Source: a virus (lineage: Duplodnaviria; Caudoviricetes). Taken from it: 25,855 nt of DNA. The stretch spans positions 1 through 25,855 of the IMG/VR virus record IMGVR_UViG_3300044846_000606. One strand, given 5' to 3'. Shown in pieces: positions 1 to 17,413 of this stretch; positions within the stretch are counted from its first letter, which is position 1, and the number at the start of each line of letters is the position of its first letter. A model generated the notes under the pieces. The model did no database searches. It was not told the DNA's origin and saw only the letters and a program-made list of their open reading frames with translations. The position numbers were made by a program, and so were the translations under genes.

Positions 1-232
1 AATCAGCGTGTTTTTTATCTAATATAAATTCGTCCCATGCTCCATATCTAGATGTATATCCAAATATGTATTTGACACCATACTTAAGACGATACCAAAA
101 GGAACGTCTTACTAGATGTACGTGTACGTATGCTTCTGGAGCAAACATATCACCGCCTTCATCCAAATGTACAATCATTTGATGATCTGAGCTATAACAG
201 CTACAGAGTAATAACATATGTTTGTCATTCAT
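1..232 (-). CDS. hypothetical phage protein, runs off the window's left edge
   Basis: Manual translation from ATG at 232: MNDKHMLLLCSCYSSDHQMIVHLDEGG...RRSFWYRLKYGVKYIFGYTSRYGAWDEFILDKKHAD, open to the edge; A-rich leader; absent from the ORF track. Confidence 0.8.
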   Translation of the reverse strand, partial: MNDKHMLLLCSCYSSDHQMIVHLDEGGDMFAPEAYVHVHLVRRSFWYRLKYGVKYIFGYTSRYGAWDEFILDKKHAD

Positions 233-244
233 AACTTTAAATTT

Positions 245-286
245 AAAAAAGATGGTGGAGAAATTTACCAAAAACTCCACCATCTT
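245..286 (-). terminator. intrinsic terminator-like hairpin
   Basis: GATGGTGGAG/CTCCACCATC stem followed by a T-run on the minus strand. Confidence 0.6.
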
Positions 287-310
287 ATCCACCAATTACT
301 TTTATCGGGG

Positions 311-575
311 CACCATTGGAAAGATTTACCGTCTGTTTATAAGTGCGTTCTACTACTCGGATTATATAAGTAGCTTCCAAACTTAGAAATTTCATTGATT
401 ACTCCTAGATATCCGGTTTTGTAATGGCTCTCTACGGTGCAATACCAAGAGGACATATCACGTGGCCGGTTTTATTGCCACTGACTTCAATCTAGTAATA
501 ACATTAAAACTAATCTATCATCTTACGACACCATCCAAGTCATGCTCTGGTTGTTCTGTGTGGATTAGTCCTAAA
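311..575 (-). ncRNA. putative structured RNA, three consecutive multi-stem domains
   Basis: No ORF; stems 563-573/505-515 (11 bp with G-U pairs on minus), CTAGAT/ATCTAG, GTGGC/GCCAC, TTGGAA/TTCCAA (375-380/316-321), GCTACTT/GAGTAGT. Confidence 0.4.
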
Positions 576-579
576 TATT

Positions 580-1314
580 TTAATGAAAGTATACTTTTTT
601 AGTTTCTTTCCAATTATAAATACTCTGTAATGTATCCAAATAGTCTTCAGTTTTACTAAAGTCATGGATTTCTTTACAACGTTTAGGAAGCTTTCTAAAT
701 AATCTTTCTTCACTAAAATCTTTGTGGTTCATCATTACAATAATAGATGATACAAAACCTTTACGGTTGTAGTTTTTATAATAAACTGACATCTTTCTTA
801 AAGTTTCAGCAACGTCTCTTGCTTTAGAAAAGCTTTTAACTTTAAACTTACCTGCTTTAAACATTTGATCAGCATTACCACCTGATGCTCTTAAGTTACC
901 TAACATAAGAATAGCGGTGCTATGTGGAAACTCTGTATATGTAGTACAAAAGTTTCTATACAATCTATAATCTACTAGATTCTCATCTGTTGCAAAACTA
1001 TGTGCATAGTCAGCAAAAGTCCATTTACTAGCTGTAGCTTGAAGCTGAGCTATTTCTGATGTGGACATATTTTCATCATCTACAATAAATACTACAGGCA
1101 TTTTTAGTTGCACACATGCTTTAAGACGATGTTGACCATCTAATACCTGCATCTTTGAGTCTACTTTGATTGGGATTTTTTGACCCATTATTTCAAAGCT
1201 TTTAACCAACTTCTGTACGTTTGATTGGTTAATAGGTCTATTGTCAGTTCTAATTTTAAACTGAGAATAGTTAGTTGTTTGGAAGATGTTTCCAATCTTT
1301 TTTGAATCTTTCAT
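580..1314 (-). CDS. ParB/Srx-like N-terminal domain protein (DGQHR motif)
   Basis: NRPIN..V.KL..S...GQ.IPIKVD....VLDGQHRLKAC..L.MPV matches the ParB-like domain signature. Confidence 0.85.
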   Translation of the reverse strand: MKDSKKIGNIFQTTNYSQFKIRTDNRPINQSNVQKLVKSFEIMGQKIPIKVDSKMQVLDGQHRLKACVQLKMPVVFIVDDENMSTSEIAQLQATASKWTFADYAHSFATDENLVDYRLYRNFCTTYTEFPHSTAILMLGNLRASGGNADQMFKAGKFKVKSFSKARDVAETLRKMSVYYKNYNRKGFVSSIIVMMNHKDFSEERLFRKLPKRCKEIHDFSKTEDYLDTLQSIYNWKETKKVYFH

Positions 1315-1342
1315 TTATTTTATTTTAGTTAATACTGTTTTA

Positions 1343-1579
1343 AAAGCTTATCTCAGGGACTACTTTTGAATCATTACGAAGTGCTACTAGGTATGACCAC
1401 TGTTGGTTTGACAGAAATTTATTTTACTAATATGTCTTACTACTAAGTGACGGAACTCTTTGCGGACGAGACAGAATCTACTTATAGGCACCTGAGATCA
1501 AGCTTTAAACATAACTATTACAACAGATCAATGCTGGCCAGAGGCCATTGGTCTTATATGATGTTATTGTAATCAGTTA
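1343..1579. ncRNA. putative structured leader or ncRNA elements
   Basis: Long-range stem AAAGCTT-A-TCTCAGG (1343-1357) with CCTGAGA-TC-AAGCTTT (1491-1506); second element TAACT-ATTACAA (1512-1523) with TTGTAAT-C-AGTTA (1567-1579) enclosing GATCAATG/CATTGGTC. Confidence 0.45.
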
Positions 1580-1668
1580 ATATCATGGCTTGGGGCTCAA
1601 GAATTATACTTATGAGTAGCGTACGTATACCTGCCCATCCGAACTTGGCCCTCGTTGCCTAAGTATTT

Positions 1669-1956
1669 TTATTTTAATATAATAGTCTTCCATGTTCTAC
1701 CTTTTCCCATAAACTCACGTTCTATGACGCCTTTAGTCTTAAGGGAATTTATACACCTCTTAATAGTGGATTCTGTAGTTTCTAGTTCTGCAGTCATCCT
1801 ACTCATACTAAGAGTTAACTCATTAGTTGAGCTATTAGCGTATGTACATAGGTAAGAATAAAAACCTTTATCTCTTATGGAGATAGTAGGATCTCTCATC
1901 ACTGCGTTAGAAACTTGTCCGAAGCCACCTTTTAATCTATAGTTGCTTACTGCCAT
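1669..1956 (-). CDS. helix-turn-helix DNA-binding protein (HTH_36 / replication initiator N-terminus-like)
   Basis: F.QVSNAVMRDPTIS..DKGFYSYLCTYA...SMSRMTAELETTESTIKRCINSLKTKGVI.RE is a winged-HTH pattern. Confidence 0.8.
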   Translation of the reverse strand: MAVSNYRLKGGFGQVSNAVMRDPTISIRDKGFYSYLCTYANSSTNELTLSMSRMTAELETTESTIKRCINSLKTKGVIEREFMGKGRTWKTIILK

Positions 1957-1977
1957 AGTGATTTGATTATTAATAAT

Positions 1978-2012
1978 AAAAAAGAGGAGTGTGCTATTTA
2001 CACACCCCTCTT
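1978..2012 (-). terminator. intrinsic terminator-like hairpin
   Basis: AAGAGG.GTGTG/CACAC.CCTCTT stem with a T6 run on the minus strand, just after the stop of 2025..2642. Confidence 0.65.
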
Positions 2013-2024
2013 AGTTTACCAACC

Positions 2025-2642
2025 CTACTTATCGTCATCCTTAGAAAATAATCCTGATAAAAGATCATTGATATCAAAGTCTGAGTCTTTAGTACGAAAA
2101 CTTTCATCATTTTGGTTTTTTACTAAAAGTAAATACTTATCAAAGTTGTACCCACTCTTTTTTACAAGCTTAATACGATTCATGATAGATTCTTTACTAT
2201 AAACTTCAACTCCAGTATCCTCATCATTAGAGTCTTCTCCAGCCTCTTGACGATCTTTCAATTCTTTTAACTTTAGTATACCTTTAAGAATCTGCATTTT
2301 TATTTGCTGTTCACGAGATTCTGCTGAGTCTTCATTAGTATTTTTATACATAATATAGACTTCTTTAGCCATACGCTGAAACATCATGAAAGTTAACAAA
2401 CTGTATTCATATTCTAAAGGATTAGTAATCATAGAAATTAATCTTTCTAGATCTCCAGTGACGGTACGAAATGCTTTAGGTGCATCCTCCATATCATCAA
2501 ACAGTTCTTCTGCTTGTAAAGAGTTACTAAAAGTTGAAAAGAATATACGTTCTCTACATATAGTTTTAGTTTCTTCACTAATACCCATAGCTAGATGGAA
2601 ATCATCCATCTCATGGTCAAATTTTGTATCTTTTAATGACAT
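2025..2642 (-). CDS. hypothetical protein (acidic, helical)
   Basis: 205-aa ORF in operon orientation, 4 nt from the upstream gene. Confidence 0.8.
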   Translation of the reverse strand: MSLKDTKFDHEMDDFHLAMGISEETKTICRERIFFSTFSNSLQAEELFDDMEDAPKAFRTVTGDLERLISMITNPLEYEYSLLTFMMFQRMAKEVYIMYKNTNEDSAESREQQIKMQILKGILKLKELKDRQEAGEDSNDEDTGVEVYSKESIMNRIKLVKKSGYNFDKYLLLVKNQNDESFRTKDSDFDINDLLSGLFSKDDDK

Positions 2643-2646
2643 AGCG

Positions 2647-3045
2647 TTATTTAATTATTTTATCAGCAATATAGGTTACAAACTCTTCAGGTGTTTTGTT
2701 ATCATCAGACATATAGTCTTCAATTAAGATCATGTCTTTGATACTATCTACCGAAAATAAAGCATGGTAGTTAACAGATATATGAGGCTTTGAATGATAT
2801 GCAGATATACCTACATCAGATATCTTAGTAGAGTACTTTTCTTCTATCTCTTTTCTAGTAGCTAGTTTTTTTTCTTCAAGCTCATCAATCTTAGCAATAG
2901 TTGACAATAACTCTTTATATAATTTAGAAGATTCTACCTTTTTTACAAGGATTTCAGAACTTCCTTTGTGACGAGCTACTAATTCAGCTCTCACTTTTTC
3001 TGCTAATGCTTTAGCAATAATTGGTGTCAGTTTTTTCTGTGACAT
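2647..3045 (-). CDS. hypothetical protein with coiled coil
   Basis: 132-aa ORF, A-rich leader, co-oriented with neighbours. Confidence 0.8.
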   Translation of the reverse strand: MSQKKLTPIIAKALAEKVRAELVARHKGSSEILVKKVESSKLYKELLSTIAKIDELEEKKLATRKEIEEKYSTKISDVGISAYHSKPHISVNYHALFSVDSIKDMILIEDYMSDDNKTPEEFVTYIADKIIK

Positions 3046-3092
3046 AGTTGGGTTTTATTTAATAAATAATTGGTTGAAAAATGTTAGTATTA

Positions 3093-3302
3093 TTAAGTGT
3101 GTAAACATACATACTTAACCTTTTCACCCATCAATACACGTACATTATCAGATTTTCTGTCTGCTAACACCGATACATTGAATTGGGTACACCAGTTTTG
3201 ATATTCTGGCGTTACTATCATTGGCTCTCTACGAGAGGTATAAGTTAAGCCCACTGTAACAGCAGGCTTAACGTTAAATAGTTGGTTTAATAACTGTTTC
3301 AT
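3093..3302 (-). CDS. hypothetical protein
   Basis: Track ORF 3093..3332; the start at 3302 (MKQLL) avoids overlap with the upstream gene. Confidence 0.65.
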   Translation of the reverse strand: MKQLLNQLFNVKPAVTVGLTYTSRREPMIVTPEYQNWCTQFNVSVLADRKSDNVRVLMGEKVKYVCLHT

Positions 3303-3312
3303 ATAATATGAG

Positions 3313-3534
3313 TTAGTTGTCCATAAATTCAAAGATGTAAGTGTTACTTAATGTATCATACACTACCATCATCTCTGTTGGTTTAGTTCTATCGTGTGAT
3401 ATAGTCTTAGAGTTAAACTCTTCAGGCATATCATACTTCTTTTGAGAATTACTTAATATATTGTAAAATATCACTGATACAGATAGTAATACAATCATAA
3501 TAAGTGTTACAGAAACCTTATCTATTGTTTTCAT
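3313..3534 (-). CDS. small membrane-anchored protein
   Basis: N-terminal hydrophobic helix VSVTLIMIVLLSVSVIFYNIL. Confidence 0.75.
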   Translation of the reverse strand: MKTIDKVSVTLIMIVLLSVSVIFYNILSNSQKKYDMPEEFNSKTISHDRTKPTEMMVVYDTLSNTYIFEFMDN

Positions 3535-3543
3535 ATAATGTTT

Positions 3544-4074
3544 TTAGAATGATTCAATCATAGGTAATAAGGTTAATGCCTGCTCATATGAGTCAGCCCA
3601 AATCTTGTAGTCTTTAATGATCCACATAGATTTACCAGTCTGTGTATTAATCTCATCTGGTGGAGGTGCCATTTTATTATCAGACATTGTAAACCCTGCA
3701 CTGTCATACTCAGGTTCTTCATCTAATGAATATACACTAGGAGTTAAACCCCACTCTGATTCAGGATTAAGAACACAAACTTGTACGTCTACATAACCAC
3801 TCTTTACCCAATTGTTAGTTGGCGTAACTATATTATGTTTAGCTAAAAAGTTTGTAATGCCCTCATTCTCAGAATAGTCTTTGATTAAAACTTCATTGTC
3901 TTGTAATAGTACATTAGGAATGTTTACACTTGCAGTCATGTAAGGTGTAGGTCCATATGCAGGATCCATTTCTAATAATTCAATAGCCGAACGTCCGTTA
4001 TTATACTGACGTATATTCACTGTTACTGGAATATCTTCACAAGTAAAGGGACTAGTTAACGTAAATTGTTTCAT
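3544..4074 (-). CDS. DUF4313-like hypothetical phage protein with C-terminal extension
   Basis: Y.NNGR.AIEL...PY.TASVNIP...L..NEVLIKDYSENEG resembles DUF4313 (recognised by eye). Confidence 0.6.
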   Translation of the reverse strand: MKQFTLTSPFTCEDIPVTVNIRQYNNGRSAIELLEMDPAYGPTPYMTASVNIPNVLLQDNEVLIKDYSENEGITNFLAKHNIVTPTNNWVKSGYVDVQVCVLNPESEWGLTPSVYSLDEEPEYDSAGFTMSDNKMAPPPDEINTQTGKSMWIIKDYKIWADSYEQALTLLPMIESF

Positions 4075-4083
4075 GTTAAATGA

Positions 4084-4455
4084 TTAAAGGATTTGAATAA
4101 ATATATTTTGTGGATAGGTGTTATTAAACAGATACAATACAACAGGACATAACCATAAATTATGATCGTTGTCTTTAACTGTATACCATGCACCTGAATC
4201 TAGTTCTGCTTCGTCTAAAAGTTCAGGTGTATAACCATGATTTGAAGATCTAATAAGCTCTACATCATGATCTACAAACTCCTCGTCTGTAAATTTTAGG
4301 GTGATTGATGTCTCACCTTGGGCTAATGTAGATAAAAAAGTATCTGCACCTGCTACCATTTCAAGATTGGACTTAGTGCCCACTCCTGATTCAATGTATT
4401 CTGGTAAATCTATATACCAGCGTCCATCTTCTTCTTGATAAAAGTTCTTTACCAT
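4084..4455 (-). CDS. DUF6717-like protein
   Basis: FY.EEDGRWYIDLPEY...LEMVAGADTFL...G.WY...WLCPV..Y.F...YP..I pattern. Confidence 0.65.
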   Translation of the reverse strand: MVKNFYQEEDGRWYIDLPEYIESGVGTKSNLEMVAGADTFLSTLAQGETSITLKFTDEEFVDHDVELIRSSNHGYTPELLDEAELDSGAWYTVKDNDHNLWLCPVVLYLFNNTYPQNIFIQIL

Positions 4456-4474
4456 ATAGTTTATTTAAATGTAA

Positions 4475-4509
4475 TAAAAGTAGAGCTCCCACGTAGAAAC
4501 GCAGGAGCT
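4475..4509 (-). terminator. hairpin / possible terminator
   Basis: AGCTCC/GGAGCT stem with inner pairing, followed by CTACTTTTATT on minus. Confidence 0.45.
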
Positions 4510-4553
4510 GATTTTAATTTAACCAGTGGAATACCACCATTTTACCATTGAAT

Positions 4554-4718
4554 CTAAAACGTTTGTGGTCCTTTCTTAGCTTTACGGAAGTTAAATTCCA
4601 CTATAAAGCATAGAAATGCTACATACAAATCTGGTTTGTCATAGCTAATACCAAATAATACTGTGTTAGGGATGAATTTTAGGGTAATTATCTTACCTCT
4701 AATTAGGGTTTTTTCCAT
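4554..4718 (-). CDS. small hypothetical protein (54 aa)
   Basis: Manual translation MEKTLIRGKIITLKFIPNTVLFGISYDKPDLYVAFLCFIVEFNFRKAKKGPQTF*; A-rich leader; below the track cutoff. Confidence 0.7.
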   Translation of the reverse strand: MEKTLIRGKIITLKFIPNTVLFGISYDKPDLYVAFLCFIVEFNFRKAKKGPQTF

Positions 4719-4750
4719 GTGGATTGTTATTTGATTAATAATTTTGTTTA

Positions 4751-4867
4751 TTATCTAATCACCAAGTTACATTTGTAGTTCTTTGGTGGACGTTGAGGGC
4801 TGTACGCTCTACAACTAGTTGCTATTACAGCAACAAGGGTAATGATAACTAATAATTGACTTTTCAC
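4751..4867 (-). CDS. tiny putative lipoprotein (38 aa)
   Basis: GTG start, MKSQLLVIITLVAVIATS-CRAYSPQRPPKNYKCNLVIR*: Lys N-region, hydrophobic H-region, lipobox-like IATS-C. Confidence 0.65.
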   Translation of the reverse strand: MKSQLLVIITLVAVIATSCRAYSPQRPPKNYKCNLVIR

Positions 4868-4895
4868 TATATAAGTTTTAAGCGTGAATAAAAAA

Positions 4896-5678
4896 AAATT
4901 GAGGCTGAGTGTTGACCGTCAATTTATCATCGTTTTCACAGGATTACCCCTGCTTATACACACTATAGATTACTCCATAGTAGATGATAGTACCAGTGTT
5001 TAACTTCACTCCTGAAGGATCTCTCTCTAGACTACATAGATATTAATTTCTACCAAGCGGACTGGATGGTCCTTAGCTACATCCCTGCAACTACTTAGAT
5101 ATACTTTTGCCATCTCACAGTTTTCCTTACGGTACTAGCTGTGCTGTCATATTTCATACAGATAAGGTACTTTGACCTAGAGAACTAACAGACTTTTGTT
5201 AAATTAATTAGTTTAATTTTACAATAGCATAATCCAGGACGTGCCATTAGATTGCAGCTCACTCCCTTTTGAGGAATGCGTACTACAACGCCCCAGTGTA
5301 GATTACCAGTCTACGATGTATTAAGATGCTTTAAGCCACACCTTGCTACATTGAGTAACGCAGTTATTCTTTTGGTAAAGAACTCCCACATGCACCCCAC
5401 AGGTGTTCCTATTGTGATTTCTCACTCAACAGTGTATGCTAACACTGTAATTGCTCAGAGATTTCCCCATTGCAATTGTTGCCCGCTTGCTTACTTGGCC
5501 AGCCTAACGCTGTAGATGTACGCTTGTTTACGCACACCTTATATACCTGTCACCAGGTTTATCCTAAAGACCATAAGCGGCCTAATCTCCAAAGGAGAAT
5601 ATCATAAGGTGAACCAGACCCATTACAGGCCCAGTTCACCACTAAAATTGTAAATATGCAGATTTTGTGCCTCAACCT
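4896..5678 (-). ncRNA. large structured ncRNA candidate (~780 nt)
   Basis: No credible ORF; many hairpins, several capped by GNRA tetraloops on minus; G-U pairs favour minus; ends pair (5669-5678 with 4896-4905) and are followed by a T-run. Confidence 0.65.
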
Positions 5679-5728
5679 ACAAAGCCTCTATTCAGTGAAG
5701 TAGAATAGATAAACCCCTATTAATATTG

Positions 5729-6034
5729 TTAAAATGCGTCTGATGTAAATAATTGCATTAGCTCTTCTCTTTCTACCTCAGTCATAGTGTTCATCTTACA
5801 ATAGAATTCATCACCATCTATGTCGCCTTGCCAGCCAACATTCCAGTGTGAAGCATACTTCATATACTTACAACCATCTAATTGAATAGTTGTAATGTTT
5901 GTACTACCTTCATCTTCAAAAGAAATAAACTCTTTGTTCTCTTTAACAAAGTGTTCATGAAACTCTGATATGTCAATCTCTTCTATGTCACGATTAAACA
6001 TATCGTATCTAGCGTATAGCTCTGACTTTCTCAT
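5729..6034 (-). CDS. hypothetical acidic protein
   Basis: 101-aa ORF with a typical leader. Confidence 0.75.
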   Translation of the reverse strand: MRKSELYARYDMFNRDIEEIDISEFHEHFVKENKEFISFEDEGSTNITTIQLDGCKYMKYASHWNVGWQGDIDGDEFYCKMNTMTEVEREELMQLFTSDAF

Positions 6035-6050
6035 AATGATTTAATTTAAT

Positions 6051-6075
6051 GTGGGTGAATAAGGTGGGTGAATAA
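6051..6075. repeat. tandem direct repeat GTGGGTGAATAA x2
   Basis: Copies at 6051-6062 and 6064-6075. Confidence 0.85.
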
Positions 6076-6168
6076 AAGTTTATGACAGCTCACCAGTGAG
6101 CTCTCCTTAACATAGTAGATAAAGAGCTATTCTCTATCTACTATATTAAAGGGTTCAAATATGAGCTG

Positions 6169-6387
6169 TTAAAACACTTTGTCAAAATAATCCTGCTTGG
6201 ATATGTAATACTCACGAGCTGGGAAGATGGCTAACCACCAACCTAAGAACATAGCATAAACCATAAACCAATTGTGGTTTGTTATAATCTCACTGTAAGG
6301 AGTAAAGAACACACCTATAAGAGATAGTAACAAGAAGAACAGTACGAATGAAACCAAGTAGGTTCCAATTAAGATGATAGACTTCAT
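6169..6387 (-). CDS. small membrane protein with two transmembrane helices
   Basis: Hydrophobic segments IILIGTYLVSFVLFFLLLSLIGVFF and WFMVYAMFLGWWLAIFPA. Confidence 0.8.
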   Translation of the reverse strand: MKSIILIGTYLVSFVLFFLLLSLIGVFFTPYSEIITNHNWFMVYAMFLGWWLAIFPAREYYISKQDYFDKVF

Positions 6388-6577
6388 GTGAATAGAAGTT
6401 TAAAGGGTGAATAAACAAGTTATAGCTATCTTATCCGTCTGACTAGGTCAGTTATTAGGCTCTAAGAGTTAGATGAAAGAAAGCTGGATAGTGGTTCTAC
6501 CACTCTTACACTCACACATAAGTGAATGTAAATCAACGTTTTATTTGACACGGGTAACGTAGAACCGTGGACGTGAG

Positions 6578-6670
6578 TTACGCTTGGCGTATATCAGCAG
6601 CCACTGTTGCAGCTTCTATCATAGAAGATACAATAGTGATTGTTCCGTCTAGAAGAACGAGTGCAATCAT
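6578..6670 (-). CDS. small hypothetical peptide (30 aa)
   Basis: MIALVLLDGTITIVSSMIEAATVAADIRQA* with an A/C-rich leader; the longer track ORF would have to cross a terminator. Confidence 0.45.
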   Translation of the reverse strand: MIALVLLDGTITIVSSMIEAATVAADIRQA

Positions 6671-6756
6671 GTTGTTAGTGTGTGGGTTTGTTAATATGTT
6701 AATAGATATAATAAACTGATATGCGTACTGACTGAACTGATAAACTAAAAAGAAGT

Positions 6757-6792
6757 AAAAAAAGGCATACGAGGTTTTTCCCCGTATGCCTT
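6757..6792 (-). terminator. intrinsic terminator
   Basis: AAGGCATACG/CGTATGCCTT stem with a T7 run on minus, directly after the stop of 6798..7085. Confidence 0.8.
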
Positions 6793-6797
6793 GCACG

Positions 6798-7085
6798 TTA
6801 TTTAACGTGTAGCCATTTCAGCATAAGCTTCACAACTTCGCCCGAAGTAGTGTCGACTGTATCATATGGACGCTCTTCTATACGGAAGTTGTCCAATTCA
6901 AGTTCATCGACTGTACCCACCTTAGTAGGTTTGCTCAAAGCTATGAAGTATGTGAGTTGACCACTTACCTTAGTTTGACCGAGCACGCTCACTTCCTTAC
7001 CTTCTGTTTTCAGAGTGTGAATGTAGTTACCATTCTTAGAAGCTTGTGTAGAACATTTGCTGACTGTTACTTTAATCTTTCCCAT
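6798..7085 (-). CDS. hypothetical beta-rich protein, first gene of the leftward cluster
   Basis: 95-aa ORF with a strong A-rich leader and its own terminator. Confidence 0.8.
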   Translation of the reverse strand: MGKIKVTVSKCSTQASKNGNYIHTLKTEGKEVSVLGQTKVSGQLTYFIALSKPTKVGTVDELELDNFRIEERPYDTVDTTSGEVVKLMLKWLHVK

Positions 7086-7301
7086 TTTTAATGTTTTTTA
7101 GAGTTTAATAAAAAAAAAGAACTGCTGTTGCAAAGTACCGGGGTACCCGCAACGCCACGACTGAGTCGGGGTCAACAAACTAATACCCCTCTAGATTCTC
7201 TAACATCCTAAATTCCTATAGGAAAGCCTAGGGGGTTGCTATTAGGTTATTAACAAGTGGGGGATAACTTGTTATTGTATTGGTATATAAAAAATATTAA
7301 A

Positions 7302-7333
7302 TTTGCTAAGTTTAAACTTATTAGGTATATTAT
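7302..7333 (+). promoter_or_regulatory. putative promoter TTTG-N20-TATATTAT
   Basis: Spacing matches the Bacteroidota -33 (TTTG) / -7 (TAnnTTTG) architecture; GTATATTAT recurs at 17373 and 24146, upstream of genes. Confidence 0.55.
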
Positions 7334-7358
7334 AGTGTAGACCAAACTAAAAAATCAA

Positions 7359-7655
7359 ATGATACACACGTGCAACATTCACTGCCACACGCTAGAAGTA
7401 GAGAAGGCAGAATTGATGGGACTAGAGGATAAAGGGAGATGGATGCCATTTGCATTCCATATAGATATTGTGATAGCTTGTAAACTCACCTCTGATGAGG
7501 AAGATTCTTTGGTTAATGGCTGCACCACAATTTTTACAGAGCCAGGTGATACGTATATCATAGATACGCCATATGAGCAATTTATGCCAATATTTAAAAC
7601 CTATTATGATGACGAACTAGATGCTACCCAAGCAAATGGTGATATAGAATTATAA
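7359..7655 (+). CDS. hypothetical protein
   Basis: 98-aa ORF, first gene of the rightward operon. Confidence 0.8.
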   Translation: MIHTCNIHCHTLEVEKAELMGLEDKGRWMPFAFHIDIVIACKLTSDEEDSLVNGCTTIFTEPGDTYIIDTPYEQFMPIFKTYYDDELDATQANGDIEL

Positions 7656-7675
7656 ACAATTAAACAAACCAAATT

Positions 7676-8053
7676 ATGTCAGAAGAAACACAAAAAGTGA
7701 ACGAAGAACAAAAAGCTCCTACTAAAGATCAAGTGATGGAGTTCTTAAAAGAGCAGATTGATGTAAAGAAGCTACAACTTGAGCTTCAGCAGCTTAACAC
7801 TGGACTTGCTACAAACAGAGCAGAAGAGTTAAAAGCATTAAGCTTTATTGCTCAATTGACTAACCCAAGACAAGAGGGAGGATCTCCATACCAAGGTGCA
7901 CCAGACGGTACGCCTCATAAGATTACACAAGAAGATCTTGATAATAATCCAGAGCTTGTAGAAGCAGGTGTAGAGGTGGGGGATGATGTTATTATTCCTA
8001 ACCAAGAAGGTCCACAAGAAGAAGCACCAAGTAAAAAGTTAAAAAAGAACTAG
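7676..8053 (+). CDS. hypothetical protein, N-terminal coiled coil plus acidic C-terminal motif
   Basis: 125-aa ORF containing HKITQEDLDNNPELVEAGVEVGDDV. Confidence 0.8.
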   Translation: MSEETQKVNEEQKAPTKDQVMEFLKEQIDVKKLQLELQQLNTGLATNRAEELKALSFIAQLTNPRQEGGSPYQGAPDGTPHKITQEDLDNNPELVEAGVEVGDDVIIPNQEGPQEEAPSKKLKKN

Positions 8054-8054
8054 A

Positions 8055-8501
8055 ATGGGTTCATCATATTCTATTCTTTATAGGTTAAAAGACTATAAAG
8101 AATGTCTACCCTTTGAACGTGAGCATCCTAAAGAACTACGTTGGGATGATAAGTATAAAATCTTTATGCTTACACAAAAGGAGAAATGTCAAGGAATATG
8201 GATGAAGGACGGTAAGAGTGGTTTAATAGCTGAGGCTATTGTAACATGGCAGAGTGATAATGTATTGCATATTGATAGCTTCACCGTTTTGCCTTCCCAT
8301 AGAGGACAGGGATTAGGATATAAGCTTGTACAAGCTGTAATAGATTGGGCTCAAGAAATGGACTACGCACATTTAACAGGAGAAGCTAGAATAGGAGCAT
8401 CGTGGCACATTTTTGCAAACATGAGTGCTGCCCCGGTGCTCTTATATAAAAACTGGAATGACACTGGAGAAGATTACATGAGTTTTAAAATAGAATTATA
8501 A
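8055..8501 (+). CDS. GNAT family acetyltransferase
   Basis: Motif A: LHIDSFTVLPSHRGQGLGYKLVQAVIDWA. Confidence 0.9.
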   Translation: MGSSYSILYRLKDYKECLPFEREHPKELRWDDKYKIFMLTQKEKCQGIWMKDGKSGLIAEAIVTWQSDNVLHIDSFTVLPSHRGQGLGYKLVQAVIDWAQEMDYAHLTGEARIGASWHIFANMSAAPVLLYKNWNDTGEDYMSFKIEL

Positions 8502-8872
8502 TGGCAATAGTAAACCAAGTAGATAAGCGAGTGAAGATGAGTGGCTGGCAAATAGTTAAATATCAAATTTTAACTCACTGCTACTTATACAACATTCAAG
8601 TGAGTGAGTCTGATTTAGACTGTCTCACCCTTCTTGCAATAGAAGGAGATCAAGAACTTACAAGTTTTTGTAATAAAGCTCATGATAAGCAAATATTCTC
8701 TAGTACCCAGTCGGTACGCAACTGCTTAACTAAATCAGAAAAGAAAGGCTTAATTAAAAAAGAAGGAAAGAATAAGAAAAAGATATTTATTAATCCAGAA
8801 CTAAAGGTACATTCTACTGGTAATATTTTGTTAGACTTTAAATTCTTAAGCATTGCATCCACGGAAAGCTAA
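8501..8872 (+). CDS. putative winged-helix DNA-binding protein
   Basis: SESDLDCLTLL...IFSSTQSVRNCLTKSEKKGLIKK...KKIFINP pattern; TAATG coupling with the upstream gene. Confidence 0.6.
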   Translation: MAIVNQVDKRVKMSGWQIVKYQILTHCYLYNIQVSESDLDCLTLLAIEGDQELTSFCNKAHDKQIFSSTQSVRNCLTKSEKKGLIKKEGKNKKKIFINPELKVHSTGNILLDFKFLSIASTES

Positions 8873-9251
8873 AGAGCTATATTCAGAAGTGGCAAAAGAA
8901 GCCAATCTATCTGAAGAAACTATAAACAATATAGTAGGTTTTTATTGGAGAGAGGTGAGAAAGAATCTATCTTCATTAAAGCATTCTAGAGTGCATATTA
9001 CAAATCTTGGTGATTTTGTAACAAAGCATTGGAAGATAGATAGTAAGATTGAGATGCTTGAAAAGTTTGAAGAGAACAACAGGCAAAAAGGTTTACAGCA
9101 AATGACTGCTAGATTTAAAACAGCAGAAACATTGTTTGACCTGAAAATACTAAAGGATATTATTACAGAAGAAAAGCAAAGAGCTGACTTTATTAAAATG
9201 CATAAATCTCATGAGTCTAAAAGAAAACATAATAAAAATATGGAAGAGTAA
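8853..9251 (+). CDS. HU/IHF-like DNA-binding protein
   Basis: KELYSEVAKEANLSEETINNIV..YW.EVRKNL....RVHITNLGDF is an HU/IHF fold pattern; TTG start. Confidence 0.75.
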   Translation: MHPRKAKELYSEVAKEANLSEETINNIVGFYWREVRKNLSSLKHSRVHITNLGDFVTKHWKIDSKIEMLEKFEENNRQKGLQQMTARFKTAETLFDLKILKDIITEEKQRADFIKMHKSHESKRKHNKNMEE

Positions 9252-9540
9252 AGGTCAGATCATAGAGGGCATAACCAATTCCATATTTAAGAAAGAAGAT
9301 GTTGAAGAGATTGCTAAACATAGATTAAGTATATGTCACTTCTGTGATCTTTATACAGAATCAGATAGTGGCTGCATGGTTCCTGGCACTGATCCTTGTT
9401 GTAATAAAGAACTAGGAGGATGCGGATGCTGTCTTGCATTAAAGACAAGAAGTTTAAGTTCAGAATGTCCAAAGGGGCACTGGAAAGCAGAGTTGACACA
9501 AGAGGAAGAAGATAAACTAAACGAAAAATTAGGACTATGA
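9211..9540 (+). CDS. Cys-rich putative metal-binding protein (DUF6171-like)
   Basis: RLSICHFC...CC...GCGCCLALKTRSLSSECPKGHW. Confidence 0.7.
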   Translation: MSLKENIIKIWKSKGQIIEGITNSIFKKEDVEEIAKHRLSICHFCDLYTESDSGCMVPGTDPCCNKELGGCGCCLALKTRSLSSECPKGHWKAELTQEEEDKLNEKLGL

Positions 9541-10370
9541 TAGTTTTCACAGCACAAAACCACAAGTATAGAAGTATAGATGCTACAGATGTTACAAACT
9601 GGGTTTCTGTAACAAGCTTTATATCAAACTTTAAAAAGCCATTTGAGTCAGACGTTATTGCTGCTAAATCTTCTAAGTCTAAAAAGTCTAAGTGGTATGG
9701 CATGACACCTGAAGAAATAAAGGATGCATGGGCATCAGAAGCTAAACGTGCAACAGACCTTGGAACTTGGTATCATAATTGTAGAGAAAAAGATTTGTGC
9801 GAACTAACCACGATGGAACGTCATGGGGAAGTGGTGCCTGTATTTAAACCCATCGAAACAGATGGAATTAAACAAGCTCCAGTACAAAAGCTTACTAATG
9901 GTGTTTATCCAGAACACATGGTTTATTTAAAATCTGCTGGTTTATGCGGTCAGTCAGATCTTGTAGAAGTGATCAATGGAGAAGTGCATATCACAGACTA
10001 TAAGACTAACAAAGAAATTAAAACAGAAGGATACACTAGTTGGGACGGTAAGGTGGATAGAATGGCTAGTCCTTTAACTCACTTAGATGATTGTAATCTA
10101 AATCACTATACACTACAGCTAAGTTTATATTTATATATTATTCTTAAGCACAACCCTAGGTTAAAACCAGGTAATTTAATAATCCATCACATCCTATTTG
10201 AAACAGTGGGCGTAGATAAGTTTGGTAATCCAATCACTGCGTTAGATACAACCGGAAATCCCATAGTAAAAGATATAGTGCAGTATAACCTTCCTTATAT
10301 GAAGAGTGAGGTGATAAACTTATTGCATTGGTTAGAAGACAATAGAGAACAGTTAAAACCTAAGCATTAA
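9537..10370 (+). CDS. PD-(D/E)xK family nuclease
   Basis: SVT...LGTWYH...PEHMVY...GLCGQSDLV...ITDYKT...YTLQLSLY motifs. Confidence 0.9.
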   Translation: MIVFTAQNHKYRSIDATDVTNWVSVTSFISNFKKPFESDVIAAKSSKSKKSKWYGMTPEEIKDAWASEAKRATDLGTWYHNCREKDLCELTTMERHGEVVPVFKPIETDGIKQAPVQKLTNGVYPEHMVYLKSAGLCGQSDLVEVINGEVHITDYKTNKEIKTEGYTSWDGKVDRMASPLTHLDDCNLNHYTLQLSLYLYIILKHNPRLKPGNLIIHHILFETVGVDKFGNPITALDTTGNPIVKDIVQYNLPYMKSEVINLLHWLEDNREQLKPKH

Positions 10371-10885
10371 TGAGAAAAGAATTACTTGTTTCTGCTTCTA
10401 AAGAAAAGAAGCTTATTGTTACACTTACTAATAAGCTTATTGAGAAATACCCTGATGTATCAGCTGATAACACTCTTTTAGTGATGGTTAGTCCTGACTA
10501 TTCTGCAACAGTAGCTATGCACCTTGCTCATAATCTAAGCAAAGATGGAGATATGTGTGATATACTACCTATACACGTTCCCTATCCTGATGAAAATGAA
10601 CACATCTATGTAAGGAAAGCAGACCAAGATATAGACAATTGGTTTAAGTTTTCAGAAGATGATTATAAATATTATCTTTTAGTAGAAGGGGGAGTTATTC
10701 GTGGAGGTAACTATACATGGCTTACTAAGTTATTTAGAAATAAGGTGACTGGTAATATTATTACAGCTTCTCTATATGAAAATATAGGAAGTAGATTTCA
10801 AAGTGATGTTGTAGCAGAATACTACGATAACACTAAACAAGACCTCACCTTTTATTTTGAAAGGGAAAATAAACACTGGAACTAA
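10370..10885 (+). CDS. type I phosphoribosyltransferase-like protein with a divergent PRPP loop
   Basis: LLVEGGVIRGGNY aligns with hhhDDhhxSGxT; downstream TASLY..K/R...D and LTFYFE resemble Gpt-like PRTases. Confidence 0.6.
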   Translation: MRKELLVSASKEKKLIVTLTNKLIEKYPDVSADNTLLVMVSPDYSATVAMHLAHNLSKDGDMCDILPIHVPYPDENEHIYVRKADQDIDNWFKFSEDDYKYYLLVEGGVIRGGNYTWLTKLFRNKVTGNIITASLYENIGSRFQSDVVAEYYDNTKQDLTFYFERENKHWN

Positions 10886-11397
10886 TGGTAAGATTATTTG
10901 ATATACAGAATGGTAAGGTTGTTCCAAGTGAGCATTGTTACACTCTAAATTCTTTAAAAAAGATTATGGATGAGTATGGCGAAGAAGCAGTGAAGGTGTA
11001 TGCATATTTGTTTTATATGACCTGCCCTAGTCCAGATCTAAATCCGTTCTTTGATATGCCAGAACAAGATAAGGAAGAACTTATTTTAGTTGAGGTGGAT
11101 GGTGACTTTTCAGGAGAAGATGAAACAATAGTTGTTGCACTTAAGGTTTGTCAGAAAATGTATGAGACTCCTACGTATAGAGCATACAATGGAATCAAGA
11201 TTGCCTTAGATAATATGGCAACGTTTATGGCTACAGAAAAACCTACATCAGGACGTGATGGATCTGCTACAGCGTTACTACGCATAGCAGAAAGGTTTGA
11301 TGCAGTGAGACAAAGTTTTAAAGGAGTGTATAGAGATTTACAAGAAGAGCAGCAATCTTCTGTAAGAGGTGGCCAGAGATTGGCATATGATCAATAG
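10885..11397 (+). CDS. hypothetical protein, candidate terminase small subunit
   Basis: 170 aa, helical, basic VRGG tail, upstream of TerL; the function is inferred from position only. Confidence 0.5.
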   Translation: MVRLFDIQNGKVVPSEHCYTLNSLKKIMDEYGEEAVKVYAYLFYMTCPSPDLNPFFDMPEQDKEELILVEVDGDFSGEDETIVVALKVCQKMYETPTYRAYNGIKIALDNMATFMATEKPTSGRDGSATALLRIAERFDAVRQSFKGVYRDLQEEQQSSVRGGQRLAYDQ

Positions 11398-11468
11398 GGT
11401 GAGTTGGTAGAGTGGTTATATAGCGGTTTGCAAAACCGTTCACACAAGTTCGAATCTTGTACTCACCT
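11398..11468 (+). tRNA. tRNA-Cys(GCA)
   Basis: Acceptor GGTGAGT/ACTCACC, anticodon arm GCGGT-TTGCAAA-ACCGT, T arm ACAAG-TTCGAAT-CTTGT, U73; CCA not encoded. Confidence 0.92.
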
Positions 11469-11474
11469 CTATAT

Positions 11475-11644
11475 TGTAGAGTGGCGAAATTGGGTTGTCT
11501 CAGTTATGACCTTGGCATACGCACCCACCTGTCTCGTGGGCGGTGATAAAGAAATAGATTGATGATATGGGGTAGACCACCAGCTTGCAAGCGTACTGTC
11601 ATCAATTGAATCTCACCTTGGTGGTTCGAATCCATCCTCTACAG
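11475..11644 (+). tRNA. expanded tRNA-Asp(GTC)-like RNA (170 nt)
   Basis: Acceptor TGTAGAG/CTCTACA plus G73; D stem GCG/CGC; anticodon arm CCCAC-CTGTCTC-GTGGG; T arm GGTGG-TTCGAAT-CCATC; 22-nt D-loop insertion and 79-nt variable region. Confidence 0.75.
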
Positions 11645-11649
11645 CAATA

Positions 11650-11760
11650 TTAGGTTGACTGGAATGGCGTACTCTTAACTGTAGAAAGGGCAGTACGTGA
11701 TCGGTTAGAAATGCCAGTCGTAAAAGCAGATGTCCACGCACCCATCTTCTGCTTTCCTAA
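11650..11760 (+). ncRNA. unidentified structured RNA with a potential pseudoknot
   Basis: Stems TTAGG/CCTAA, TGACTGG/CCAGTCG, GCGTACT/AGTACGT, AAAGCAGA/TCTGCTTT; loop TAACTG can pair with CGGTTA. Confidence 0.6.
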
Positions 11761-11779
11761 ACTTATTAAATATAAAACT

Positions 11780-12055
11780 ATGGTACAAGACGTTTACACA
11801 GATTATGAAATTAAAGAGTTTGCAGCAGTTGACCCTCTATCAGATATTGATGGTTATATGCATGATTGGGTTTTCCATTTTAATCCTTACACTAAACTAT
11901 GGAATGCTATTCCTAGAGATTTGTATACTAAATATTGGGACAATTGTGAACTGGATGGCGTATTACGTAGTAAAGATTTTAACACTCTTTTACATTTACT
12001 ACATAAATGTAAAGGGGATGTGATTGACATACATAAATTAACCTCAACTAAGTAA
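11780..12055 (+). CDS. hypothetical protein
   Basis: Track ORF 11711..12055; ATG 11780 has an A-rich leader and lies after the RNA structure; contains WVFHFNPYTKLWNAIPRD. Confidence 0.75.
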   Translation: MVQDVYTDYEIKEFAAVDPLSDIDGYMHDWVFHFNPYTKLWNAIPRDLYTKYWDNCELDGVLRSKDFNTLLHLLHKCKGDVIDIHKLTSTK

Positions 12056-14260
12056 TTGGAACCTAACATATTTATAGAAGTACCCACTTATAATATTGAT
12101 CACTGGACAGTAACTACTTTTTATAGTAGAGAAGAGTTTAGAGATTTTTTATTATCTGTTTTTAAAGAACCGGGTGAGTATAACTTTGACGAGACTAGTC
12201 AAATCTTTAATATTGAAGCTCGTAAGTTTCATAAGCAAGGATACTATTGTCCAGCTCCAGTAAAGAGTAAAGACTTTATAACTTATTGGGATGACCAAAA
12301 AGCTAAGTGTCGTAAAGGTATAATTGTCAAGAGTGTAAATGGTACTTGGTATATTAGTAGAGACTACTACATGTGGTTAAACTTTTTACCTATATATGAT
12401 AAAGAAGAAAAAAGATTTGACTTTGCTAAGGTGAGAGATGCACAGTATCATATGGCACTATATGAGCATTTAGCTGAATTACATTATAAGCATGCTATTA
12501 TACTAAAGAAACGTCAGATAGCATCTTCTTATTTCCATATGGCTAAACTAATTAACCAATGGGTATTTGAAGAAGGAGCTATTCTTAAAATAGGAGCTAG
12601 TCTTAAAGACTATATCAATGAAAAAGGATCTTGGAAGTTTCTTAATGAATATCGTAACTTCTTAAATGAGCACACTGCATGGTATAGACCAGCTGAGCCT
12701 GATAAGGTGGGGGCGTGGAACCAGCAGATTAAAGTAAGAGTTAACAATCGTGATACGTATAGAGGATTAAAATCTACTATCAACTTATACTCATTTGAAA
12801 AAGATCCAACACATGGTGTCGGTGGTCCTGTAACTTATTTCTTTCATGAGGAAGGAGGCATTGCTCCTAAGATGAATGACACCTATGGATTTATGAAACC
12901 AGCACTTAAGTCTGGACATATCATCACAGGTCAGTTTATTGCAGCAGGATCAGTTGGTGATCTTGATCAATGTGAACCAATGAAAGAGTATATCTATCAT
13001 CCAGAAGAAAATGGATTTTATGGTGTACAAAGTAATCTTATAGATAAAGACGGTGCTCCAGGTGTAATAGGACTTTTTATTCCTGAACAATGGTCTATGC
13101 CACCTTATATAGATCAGTATGGTAACTCTTTAGTAAAAGAAGCCTTAGAAGCCCTAGATAAGGAGTTTGAGAAGATGAAGAAGGATCTTGATCCAGGAGC
13201 ATACCAGCTTACCATTTCTCAGCATCCTAGGACCCTTGAGGAGGCTTTTGCGACACGTAAGGTGAGTGTGTTCCCTCCACATCTAGTTGCCAAACAAATG
13301 CAGCGTATCCAAGATAAGGAGTATCCAGTGGAATATCTTGAACTCTCTCGTAACGATGAGGGTAAGATTATAGATAAACCATCTAGGAAGATTCCTATTA
13401 TGGAGTTTCCTTTGTCTAAAAAGACAGAAGATAAAGAGGGAGTGATATGCATATACGAAAGACCTTCTAAAGATCCTCAGTTTGGTACATACTATGCTTC
13501 TGTAGATCCAGTTAGTGAAGGAAAGACAACCACCTCAGATTCCCTATGTTCTATATACGTATATAAGAATCCAGTGGAAGTTATAAAAGATTCAGGCAAT
13601 GGATCAGTGGAAAGTAGTATTGAGCGTGACGGTATAGTGGCATCTTGGTGTGGACGTTTTGACGATCTTAATAAAACTCATGAGCGTCTAGAGATTCTTA
13701 TAGAGTGGTATAATGCATGGACTATAGTGGAAAATAACGTAGCTTTGTTTATCCAGTATATGATATCTAAACGTAAACAAAGATATTTAGTACCTAAAGA
13801 TATGATTTTGTTCTTAAAAGATATAGGAGCAAATCGTAATGTGTTCCAAGAATATGGTTGGAAAAACGTAGGTACGCTGTTCAAAGGAAACATTCTGTCC
13901 TATGGAATTGAATATACTCAAGAAGAATTAGATCATGAGACAAAAGAAAATGGAGATATAGTAAAAACAATATATGGTATAGAACGAATACCAGATATAA
14001 TGTTACTTAGAGAGATGCAAGCATATAGAGATGGATTAAACGTGGATAGATTAGTAGCATTTTGTTCTTTAATAGCCTTTGCAAAAGTGCAACAATCTAA
14101 CCGTGGTTTCTCTAAACGTATAGAAGTTACAAAAGAAAACTTGGATAACTCCCAAAAATTTAGTAAATTAAATTATAGTCCCTTTAGACATATTGGTAAT
14201 TCTAAGGGTAACGGGCCAAGTATGAGACCACCTCGTAACCCTTTTAAAAATATGAGATAA
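12056..14260 (+). CDS. terL: terminase large subunit
   Basis: Walker A-like LKKRQIASSY, Walker B YFFHEEGG, coupling motif GSVG, nuclease motifs YYASVDP, IVENN and NVDRL; TTG start abutting the upstream stop. Confidence 0.93.
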   Translation: MEPNIFIEVPTYNIDHWTVTTFYSREEFRDFLLSVFKEPGEYNFDETSQIFNIEARKFHKQGYYCPAPVKSKDFITYWDDQKAKCRKGIIVKSVNGTWYISRDYYMWLNFLPIYDKEEKRFDFAKVRDAQYHMALYEHLAELHYKHAIILKKRQIASSYFHMAKLINQWVFEEGAILKIGASLKDYINEKGSWKFLNEYRNFLNEHTAWYRPAEPDKVGAWNQQIKVRVNNRDTYRGLKSTINLYSFEKDPTHGVGGPVTYFFHEEGGIAPKMNDTYGFMKPALKSGHIITGQFIAAGSVGDLDQCEPMKEYIYHPEENGFYGVQSNLIDKDGAPGVIGLFIPEQWSMPPYIDQYGNSLVKEALEALDKEFEKMKKDLDPGAYQLTISQHPRTLEEAFATRKVSVFPPHLVAKQMQRIQDKEYPVEYLELSRNDEGKIIDKPSRKIPIMEFPLSKKTEDKEGVICIYERPSKDPQFGTYYASVDPVSEGKTTTSDSLCSIYVYKNPVEVIKDSGNGSVESSIERDGIVASWCGRFDDLNKTHERLEILIEWYNAWTIVENNVALFIQYMISKRKQRYLVPKDMILFLKDIGANRNVFQEYGWKNVGTLFKGNILSYGIEYTQEELDHETKENGDIVKTIYGIERIPDIMLLREMQAYRDGLNVDRLVAFCSLIAFAKVQQSNRGFSKRIEVTKENLDNSQKFSKLNYSPFRHIGNSKGNGPSMRPPRNPFKNMR

Positions 14261-14266
14261 AATAAT

Positions 14267-14545
14267 ATGGAAAATAAAGACTTACATGCCCAAAAGGTAA
14301 CTATTCTTTCTAGATTGATTAAAGAAAGCTCTCTCACATTTGAGGAAGCTTTACTTATTTTGAAGGAAGAAGAGCCAAAACAGTCACCTGCACAGTTTCT
14401 AACTAGTGGTACTGGTACTGCATACATCCCTCCTTTAGGAACTTGGAGTACAACAGGGATGCCAACTTTTTTATCTATGACTGGCAGTGGTACTAGTTCT
14501 ATTACAAATACAATTGCTGATAATTCAGCAGACTTAAATAACTAA
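14267..14545 (+). CDS. hypothetical protein with a Thr/Ser/Gly-rich tail
   Basis: 92-aa ORF exactly filling the TerL-portal gap. Confidence 0.75.
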   Translation: MENKDLHAQKVTILSRLIKESSLTFEEALLILKEEEPKQSPAQFLTSGTGTAYIPPLGTWSTTGMPTFLSMTGSGTSSITNTIADNSADLNN

Positions 14546-14550
14546 ATATC

Positions 14551-17304: not shown

Positions 17305-17372
17305 TTATAGCTCTATTATCCGTATCTTAGGTATATTTTTTTAGGAAAAGTAAATATTTAAAATTTAAAGTT

Positions 17373-17390
17373 GTATATTATTTATGTAGA
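17373..17390 (+). promoter_or_regulatory. putative promoter motif GTATATTAT...TGTAGA
   Basis: Same motif as 7325-7341, upstream of the scaffold/MCP unit. Confidence 0.5.
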
Positions 17391-17413
17391 GATACACAAA
17401 AAACCAAACAAAT

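What the first reader, a model, noticed from the sequence alone, without database searches (positions are those of the whole stretch)
4896..5678. ~780-nt highly structured non-coding RNA candidate in the early region
Seen (minus strand): the 5' AGGTTGAGGC (5678-5669) pairs with the 3' GCCTCAATTT (4905-4896), followed by a T-run. An inner long-range stem TTTACAAT/ATTGTAAA (5655-5648/5225-5218) splits it into two domains. A 13-bp hairpin at 5608-5640 has three G-U pairs that form only on minus. GNRA-capped hairpins: ACCTG-GTGA-CAGGT (5545-58), GTGA-GAAA-TCAC (5414-25), CTATGGA-GTAA-TCTATAG (4963-80), CAGGG-GTAA-TCCTG (4939-52). CACAG-CTAGTA-CC-GTAA-GG-AAAA-CTGTG (5116-43) resembles a loop-E (AGUA/GAA) module. 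GC content is visibly higher than in flanking leaders. Established: phages encode large ornate RNAs of this size class (GOLLD, ROOL). Inference: a member of such a class or a new one; I cannot assign it by eye.
Basis: partly seen in the sequence, partly recalled or inferred. Interest (0 to 1): 0.85.

Follow-up and report, generated by a model that had tools for sequence, protein, structure and literature searches.

The report
Compact GOLLD RNA with rewired loops
This gene-free stretch of a lake crAss-like phage encodes a folded RNA of about 685 bases, a shortened and divergent member of the GOLLD family that standard annotation misses; it likely builds a hollow RNA cage like its relatives, but the loops predicted to lock the cage together have different sequences.

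Summary
The RNA is real but is not a new class, and it is shorter than proposed. It is a divergent GOLLD RNA at 5587-4902 (minus, about 685 nt, not 780). The 3' half matches the whole Rfam GOLLD model (87.5 bits, E 5e-23), below the 150-bit cut-off. The 5' end carries the opening motif of the solved env-38 GOLLD. Ten distinct homologues (81-100% identical) from crAss-like lake phages keep the fold with compensatory changes. Contigs in 6 of 6 lake metatranscriptomes stop at these ends (a weak hint only).

Compared with 59 canonical lake GOLLDs (796-840 nt), this branch has lost about 100 nt of the 5' cap. It has also swapped the L10-L12 kiss to other words and replaced the two self-pairing GC equator loops with a complementary pair (AGGGAU/CAUCCA). 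It sits without a tRNA array and is patchy among related phages. Cage formation is inferred, not shown. The scan had already noted a divergent GOLLD in another crAss-like phage (e1-5610764).

The parts
4902..5587 (-). Compact GOLLD RNA, whole gene (684-686 nt)
   Evidence: Conservation limits; env-38 end motifs; RNA contigs 4904-4914 to 5581-5587 in 6 of 6 runs
5297..5587 (-). GOLLD 5' (cap) domain, about 100 nt shorter than canonical: P7 shortened, P11b/c missing
   Evidence: HMM of 59 canonical 5' domains hits 5582-5329, E 4.3e-7; E 2.2e-4 without the selection motif; anchor distances
4902..5296 (-). GOLLD 3' domain
   Evidence: Rfam RF02032 positions 1-416 of 416, 87.5 bits, E 5e-23, below cut-off 150
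5560..5584 (-). GOLLD opening motif (P2 hairpin and ATAAAC); loop 5578-5573 pairs with 5494-5489 (pseudoknot)
   Evidence: Same motif opens env-38; pairing invariant in 9 of 9, covaries among canonical RNAs
5373..5378 (-). L10 loop UUACCA, predicted kissing partner of L12 (bridge B4 position)
   Evidence: Invariant in 10 of 10; canonical RNAs use AUCC/GGAU-type words here, 52 of 59
5303..5308 (-). L12 loop UGGUAA, complementary to L10
   Evidence: Invariant in 10 of 10
5226..5440 (-). L8 (5440-5436) to J13/15 (5230-5226) pseudoknot joining the two domains
   Evidence: 5-bp pairing possible in 10 of 10 compact RNAs; >=4 bp with covariation in 59 of 59 canonical
5266..5272 (-). L14 UCAAAAG loop, A-minor donor of bridge B6 in env-38
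   Evidence: Invariant in 10 of 10; matches the Rfam consensus
5201..5224 (-). Short A/U-rich variable linker (inside the cage in env-38); holds no tRNA
   Evidence: Alignment A2; ARAGORN finds no tRNA here
5129..5199 (-). Bridge B7: J13/15 dinucleotide (5199-5198) with L20 (5130-5129)
   Evidence: Compensatory change AC/GU (5) to GC/GC (4) in 9 sequences
5081..5086 (-). L21a loop AGGGAU, replacing the self-pairing GC loop of canonical GOLLD (B8)
   Evidence: Invariant in 10 of 10; canonical GCA in 52 of 59
5063..5068 (-). L21b loop CAUCCA, replacing the self-pairing GC loop (B9); complementary to L21a over 4-5 bp
   Evidence: Invariant in 10 of 10 while its stem covaries; hetero-complementarity in only 1 of 59 canonical
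4970..4973 (-). GUAA tetraloop at the place of the CAAAAG A-minor donor loop of bridge B10
   Evidence: Invariant in 10 of 10; canonical loop CAAAAG
4892..4917 (-). Terminal hairpin ending in CUCAGCCU, followed by a T-run (possible 3' end signal, inferred)
   Evidence: Same end as env-38; T-run only in the window's nearest kin; not called by the terminator scan
5608..5640 (-). 13-bp hairpin upstream of the mature RNA; possible processing or leader element (inferred), not part of GOLLD
   Evidence: Kept in L003/L270, absent in the L033 group; not covered by the RNA contigs

Best explanation
The stretch 5587-4902 (minus strand) encodes a compact, divergent GOLLD RNA of about 685 nt in a freshwater crAss-like phage, which likely folds into the two GOLLD domains and likely self-assembles into a hollow many-copy RNA cage held by rewired loop-loop contacts. 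Shown: family match, boundaries, compensatory evolution, no conserved ORF, presence in lake RNA. Inferred: it is made from the leftward early arm during infection and trimmed from a longer transcript. The in-ring contacts of the solved cages (B4, B6, B7, probably B1 and B3) are kept, B5 is lost with P11b/c, and a smaller ring than the 14-mer is expected, nearer the 12-mer of the 700-nt S. agalactiae GOLLD. The two self-pairing GC kisses at the equator are replaced by one GGAU/AUCC kiss between L21a and L21b. Most likely role (about 0.35, inference): an optional, stable RNA particle that binds or shields host translation components, or soaks up host anti-phage RNases, during infection. It is not a tRNA container here, since the linker is 25 nt and no tRNA array is present.
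For: Rfam GOLLD matched over 416 of 416 positions, E 5e-23, no rival under E 1. Both end motifs are those of env-38. The 5' domain is hit by an HMM of canonical GOLLDs. On 9 homologues, 99.5% of 1773 cells pair and 29 of 197 pairs change on both sides (shuffles 16.1, 0 of 500; slid controls 0-6). A tenth, found after the structure was fixed (L359, 81% identical), keeps 192 of 197 pairs with 28 double changes. B7 covaries. B4 is preserved as a complementary pair with wholly different words. RNA contigs in 6 of 6 runs stop within 12 nt of the motif-defined ends while a DNA run goes on. Two GOLLDs of different length both form cages (PMC12286853, PMC12990946).
Against: The score is far below the family cut-off (87.5 against 150; canonical 257-334), and the hit vanishes when more sequence is scanned. 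A sequence-only HMM of canonical 3' domains does not find the window's RNA. The structure counted was drawn from these same sequences, which fall into about three related groups, so the shuffle control overstates support; P11a was left out because it aligns badly. The B4 and L21a/L21b pairings are invariant, so they show no covariation inside the branch. Bridge names were mapped by eye. No oligomer was observed. The RNA runs were chosen as holders, are all 2017 lake samples that may be one campaign, and contigs give no strand, level or exact ends. The functional role rests on analogy alone.
Confidence: 0.8

Rival explanations
1. It is a GOLLD, but L21a and L21b kiss within one molecule, as loops do in three-way-junction riboswitches. 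The equator is then weakened and the RNA forms open rings, half-cages or monomers instead of a closed cage.
For: Both loops leave the same three-way junction. The self-complementary GC dinucleotides that join the half-shells in both solved cages are gone in 10 of 10.
Against: The two stems differ in length (7-8 against 4 bp) and have 0-1 nt linkers. The same loop words form an intermolecular kiss (B4) in env-38. A GNRA loop is kept at the B10 donor site.
Confidence: 0.25
2. It is a tRNA-processing or tRNA-storage aid, as proposed for GOLLDs in tRNA arrays, here left over after the array was lost.
For: 48 of 59 canonical loci have a tRNA within the fetched stretch and 35 have three or more. L003/G007 has a tRNA 8 nt downstream.
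Against: 9 of 10 compact loci show no tRNA in the 2-6 kb fetched. The complete relative G007 has one ARAGORN tRNA in 130 kb. The RNA is still under pairing selection. The linker is too short to hold a tRNA.
Confidence: 0.12
3. It is a new 780-nt RNA class closed by the 5678-5669/4905-4896 stem.
For: The 780-nt stretch folds with z -5.19; the flanks can pair over about 20 bp in the window. In the L033 group, unrelated flanks also pair well (5, 5 and 2 of 300 shuffles as good), so a precursor-closing stem may exist there.
Against: GOLLD match at both ends. The window's flank duplex is within chance (22 of 300). The 5' arm is a separate element. RNA contigs stop at 5581-5587.
Confidence: 0.03
4. 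The region encodes small proteins, or is a chance fold.
For: A 79-aa ORF lies on the plus strand at 5276-5515.
Against: That ORF is present in only 3 of 9 homologues, and none has a sense ATG ORF over 35 codons. No PHROG match. Compensatory changes throughout.
Confidence: 0.01

Closest known systems
GOLLD env-38 RNA, 833 nt, D7 14-mer cage (Rfam RF02032; PMC12286853)
   Same: Same opening motif, same terminal CUCAGCCU, same 3' domain layout, the L2, L8 and P15 pseudoknots, L14 AAAA loop, covarying B7, P21a and P21b both present.
   Different: About 150 nt shorter; P7 shortened and P11b/c (B5) missing; B4 uses UUACCA/UGGUAA; self-pairing GC loops (B8, B9) replaced by a complementary pair of loops; B10 donor is GUAA; no flanking Met-tRNA.
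Streptococcus agalactiae GOLLD, 700 nt, 12-mer (as described in review PMC12990946)
   Same: Similar length, and loss of part of P7 and of P11 hairpins.
   Different: It lacks P9 and P21b and closes its equator with a self-kiss of L21. This RNA keeps both P21 hairpins and has no self-complementary loop there. I did not see its sequence.
Canonical lake-phage GOLLDs fetched here (59 distinct, 796-840 nt)
   Same: 5' motif, helix order, pseudoknots.
   Different: 40-47% identity in a rough joint alignment; 257-334 bits against 81-112; mostly beside tRNAs.
ROOL RNA
   Same: Large phage RNA that forms cages (PMC12286853).
   Different: No Rfam match at E up to 10.

Membership tests
GOLLD | Conserved 3' domain matching RF02032 over its length | tested here: met
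   1-416 of 416, E 5e-23 / 2.6e-25; 0 of 14 control genomes match
GOLLD | Score at or above Rfam's gathering cut-off (150 bits) | tested here: not met
   87.5 bits; branch 81-112. This is a curation threshold, not a structural feature; it shows divergence.
GOLLD | 5' domain homologous to the env-38 type | tested here: met
   Opening motif; HMM E 4.3e-7, and 2.2e-4 without the motif used to pick the set; a shorter HMM gave only E 0.25
GOLLD | Helices and pseudoknots supported by covariation | tested here: met
   29 of 197 pairs with double changes; L359 keeps 192 of 197
GOLLD | Full set P1-P27 | tested here: not met
   About 25 nt missing in P7 and 75 nt in P11; the S. agalactiae member also lacks helices
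GOLLD | In-ring bridges B4, B6, B7 | tested here: met
   Sequence level only: complementary L10/L12, invariant L14, covarying B7
GOLLD | Self-complementary equator kisses (B8, B9) | tested here: not met
   Replaced by AGGGAU and CAUCCA in 10 of 10
GOLLD | Phage-encoded and expressed as a discrete RNA | tested here: inconclusive
   Phage: met. Discrete contigs in 6 of 6 RNA runs, but contigs give no strand or exact ends
GOLLD | Often near tRNA genes | tested here: not met
   Nearest ARAGORN tRNA in the window is 5.8 kb away; 1 of 10 compact loci has one. A tendency, not a requirement.
GOLLD | Forms a homo-oligomeric cage | not testable with these tools
   Needs mass photometry or cryo-EM
ROOL, group I/II introns, RNase P, tmRNA | Match to the Rfam model or ARAGORN | tested here: not met
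   No hit at E up to 10 in 4700-5900; no tmRNA

The most novel reading that the evidence does not exclude
This branch is a natural re-engineering of the GOLLD cage. Its two halves are locked by a heterologous L21a-L21b kiss between chains instead of symmetric self-kisses, which gives a cage of new geometry or size that cannot co-assemble with other phages' GOLLDs, and it works with no tRNA cargo.
Probability: 0.35. Interest if true: 0.75.

Novelty: new variant of a known kind. Interest (0 to 1): 0.55.

Why it matters
GOLLD cages have solved structures but no known function. A naturally trimmed, expressed member that keeps some bridges, loses one and rewires others shows which contacts selection keeps, and gives a direct test of whether the cage itself is the conserved function. 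Its lack of a tRNA array argues against tRNA storage as the general role. It also shows that GOLLD is under-annotated: the whole branch falls below Rfam's cut-off and is lost by filtered scans.

Tried and rejected
Rfam at gathering level found only a tRNA. E-value scans of 12 kb and of L359 with five other loci missed GOLLD, so the hit depends on the filters. blastn against 50,697 annotated phages found nothing. A pattern on L14 alone gave 120 loci, nearly all chance. The genome collection gave 5 hits: one truncated true motif in a Bacteroidetes bin; three more that I read showed no GOLLD end motif or Rfam match; L352 was not read. L357 and L358 were chance hits. No sigma-70 site marks the 5' end, I saw no Bacteroidetes-type promoter by eye (consensus recalled), and no repeated phage promoter emerged. 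Parts of 1-20000 without RNA contigs are not evidence of silence. A virion RNA polymerase could not be identified in G007, so 'crAss-like' rests on terminase, portal and capsid. One control window upstream (5750-6435) also folded better than shuffles (z -2.87, against -4.75 for the RNA). Two GOLLD papers were not held. Literature searches for Crassvirales+GOLLD and phi14:2+ncRNA+crAss-like gave 0 papers; two searches gave nothing relevant in their 20 listed rows. The published GOLLD alignment did not show up in the supplement search, so I cannot exclude that this branch is in it or in the 2009 alignment. A direct alignment to env-38 was not run; it was compared by eye.

Full report
1. Observation. 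The minus strand of 4890-5685 folds at -250.4 kcal/mol against -206.2 +/- 8.5 for 20 shuffles (z -5.19); the plus strand gives z -1.34. The final 686-nt stretch gives z -2.90 unrestricted and -4.75 with local pairing only, against -0.38, -1.53, -1.65 and -2.87 in four control windows. G+C is 0.41 against 0.32-0.38 in the flanks.

2. Context. The window is part of a phage genome. The terminase, portal and major head genes match PHROGs. The terminase is about 25% identical to those of gut crAss-like and Flavobacterium phages. Portal and capsid match PDB 7qog (E 1e-21) and 7qof (E 0.0015); that these entries are crAss001 is recalled. A Bacteroidota host is inferred from this. The DNA occurs in lake metagenomes. 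The RNA lies between small ORFs of the leftward arm.

3. Identity. Rfam at its cut-offs finds only tRNA-Cys. In E-value mode, 4902-5296 (minus) matches all 416 positions of GOLLD RF02032 at 87.5 bits, E 5e-23, with no other family under E 1 (confirmed, 0 of 14 control genomes match). The env-38 GOLLD sequence in the supplement of PMC12286853 begins with the same motif as window 5584-5560 and ends in the same CTCAGCCT as 4909-4902. A scan for that motif returned 119 viral loci (49 of 64 parts scanned). From the 80 with full flanks plus three earlier loci I cut 81 elements, 64 distinct: 59 of 796-840 nt and 5 of 684-689 nt (2 truncated loci dropped). Of 48 handles sent, 46 were searched. All 20 long-type records scored 257-334 bits, and seven full compact ones scored 81-112 (one truncated record 53.6). 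A 765-nt RNA of a 274-kb phage scored 95.6. None of 17 relatives picked by terminase matched, four of them 92-100% complete. The RNA is therefore patchy and optional. An HMM of the 59 canonical 5' domains finds 5582-5329 at E 4.3e-7, and 5430-5328 at E 2.2e-4 when the selection motif is removed. The matching HMM of 3' domains finds nothing, so that half is recognised by structure only.

4. Boundaries. Homology begins at about 5585 and ends at 4902. Six lake metatranscriptomes hold the stretch. Their contigs span 4904-5587, 4904-5587, 4909-5587, 4905-5581, 4914-5587 and 4906-5582, with no loose ends listed there, while a DNA run continues. Taken alone this is a weak hint: the runs were chosen as holders, may be one campaign, and contigs give no strand or level. 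It agrees, however, with ends defined independently by motif. The window's flank duplex is matched by 22 of 300 shuffles. Among the 8 compact loci tested, only L033, L327 and L330 have flank duplexes beyond chance, made of unrelated sequence.

5. Structure. Nine distinct compact RNAs were aligned (A2). I drew 197 pairs in 35 helices from Rfam, RNAalifold and a stem scan, leaving out P11a, which aligns badly. 99.5% of cells pair, and 29 pairs change on both sides (shuffles 16.1 +/- 2.4, 0 of 500; slid controls 0-6). The model was derived from these related sequences, so this overstates support. The better test is L359, found later: 81% identical, 192 of 197 pairs kept, 28 by double change. The 79-aa antisense ORF occurs in 3 of 9 homologues.

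6. What differs from known GOLLDs. Helix and bridge names follow PMC12286853 (main text parts 1-3, term passages, supplement 1 part 2, first part of supplement 3 read) and review PMC12990946 (passages and section 6), mapped by position by eye. The 5' part up to L14 is 315 nt against 419, and the 3' part 371 against 386. About 25 nt are missing in P7 and 75 nt in P11, which removes the B5 loops. B7 is kept and covaries, AC/GU to GC/GC, as it does among canonical RNAs (44 of 59 complementary, 12 unparsed, 3 not). L14 is invariant, and the L8-J13/15 pseudoknot is kept. At the B4 site, canonical AUCC/GGAU-type words (52 of 59) are replaced by UUACCA/UGGUAA in 10 of 10. At the equator, the self-complementary GC loops (L21a 52 of 59, L21b 59 of 59) are replaced by AGGGAU and CAUCCA in 10 of 10. 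These pair with each other over 4-5 bp, which only 1 of 59 canonical RNAs allows, and they are the same words that many canonical RNAs use for B4. The loops are invariant, so this kiss is inferred and not shown by covariation, and it may form within one molecule. tRNAs flank 48 of 59 canonical loci but 1 of 10 compact loci (stretches of unequal length, 2-6 kb), and complete G007 has one ARAGORN tRNA.

7. Mechanism. Shown: a conserved, non-coding, GOLLD-fold RNA present in lake RNA. Inferred from two solved relatives: self-assembly into a hollow cage (about 0.75), probably smaller than 14 copies, since its losses resemble those of the 12-mer S. agalactiae RNA. How the 5' end is made is unknown; trimming from a longer early transcript, perhaps at the 13-bp hairpin, is a guess. 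For the role I favour an optional particle that binds or shields host translation components or acts as a nuclease decoy (about 0.35). PMC12286853 reports raised expression during lysis and ribosome pull-down, and PMC6582537 reports low-level expression in a mycobacterium (passages). tRNA storage fits this branch poorly.

8. Novelty. It is a member of a known family, so not a new class, but a new variant in architecture and setting. No held paper links GOLLD and Crassvirales; subscription papers and the published alignments could not be checked. This scan noted earlier a 769-nt divergent GOLLD in another crAss-like phage (e1-5610764). It shares no sequence words with this one, and I did not check it. 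Verdict: real; new variant of a known kind; interest 0.55.

Noticed in passing
window 11475-11652 (+): tRNA-like RNA right after tRNA-Cys: acceptor and T arm, a hairpin inserted in the D loop, anticodon loop reading GUC, and a ~90-nt structured insertion in the variable arm. Missed by ARAGORN and Rfam here. Conserved in relatives and also about 0.4-1.8 kb upstream of canonical GOLLDs in large phages (L226, L246, L244, L224, L218 and others).
   Followed up: partly
window 224-481 (-): A second discrete non-coding RNA candidate: contigs in 3 of 4 RNA runs, fold z -2.75, a strong hairpin plus T-run at its end, homologues in L018 and G007, no Rfam hit.
   Followed up: partly
L003 622-692 (-); G007: tRNA called Asn with the unusual anticodon ATT lies 8 nt after the GOLLD and is the only ARAGORN tRNA in this complete 130-kb genome.
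   Followed up: no
L033, L327, L330 flanks of the GOLLD: The sequences just outside the RNA can form a ~20-bp duplex (-21 to -24 kcal/mol, 2-5 of 300 shuffles as good), a possible precursor-processing stem.
   Followed up: partly
L322 5300-6064 (+), G046: A 765-nt intermediate GOLLD (95.6 bits) in a 274-kb phage beside 17 tRNAs; it shares end motifs with the compact branch but keeps GC self-kiss loops.
   Followed up: partly
window 5655-5728 (-): Small conserved intergenic hairpin element, independent of the GOLLD; a near copy also lies on a separate DNA contig.
   Followed up: partly
window 22245-22658 (+): Gene matching PHROG 858 ('starvation-inducible transcriptional regulator') inside the structural block.
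   Followed up: no
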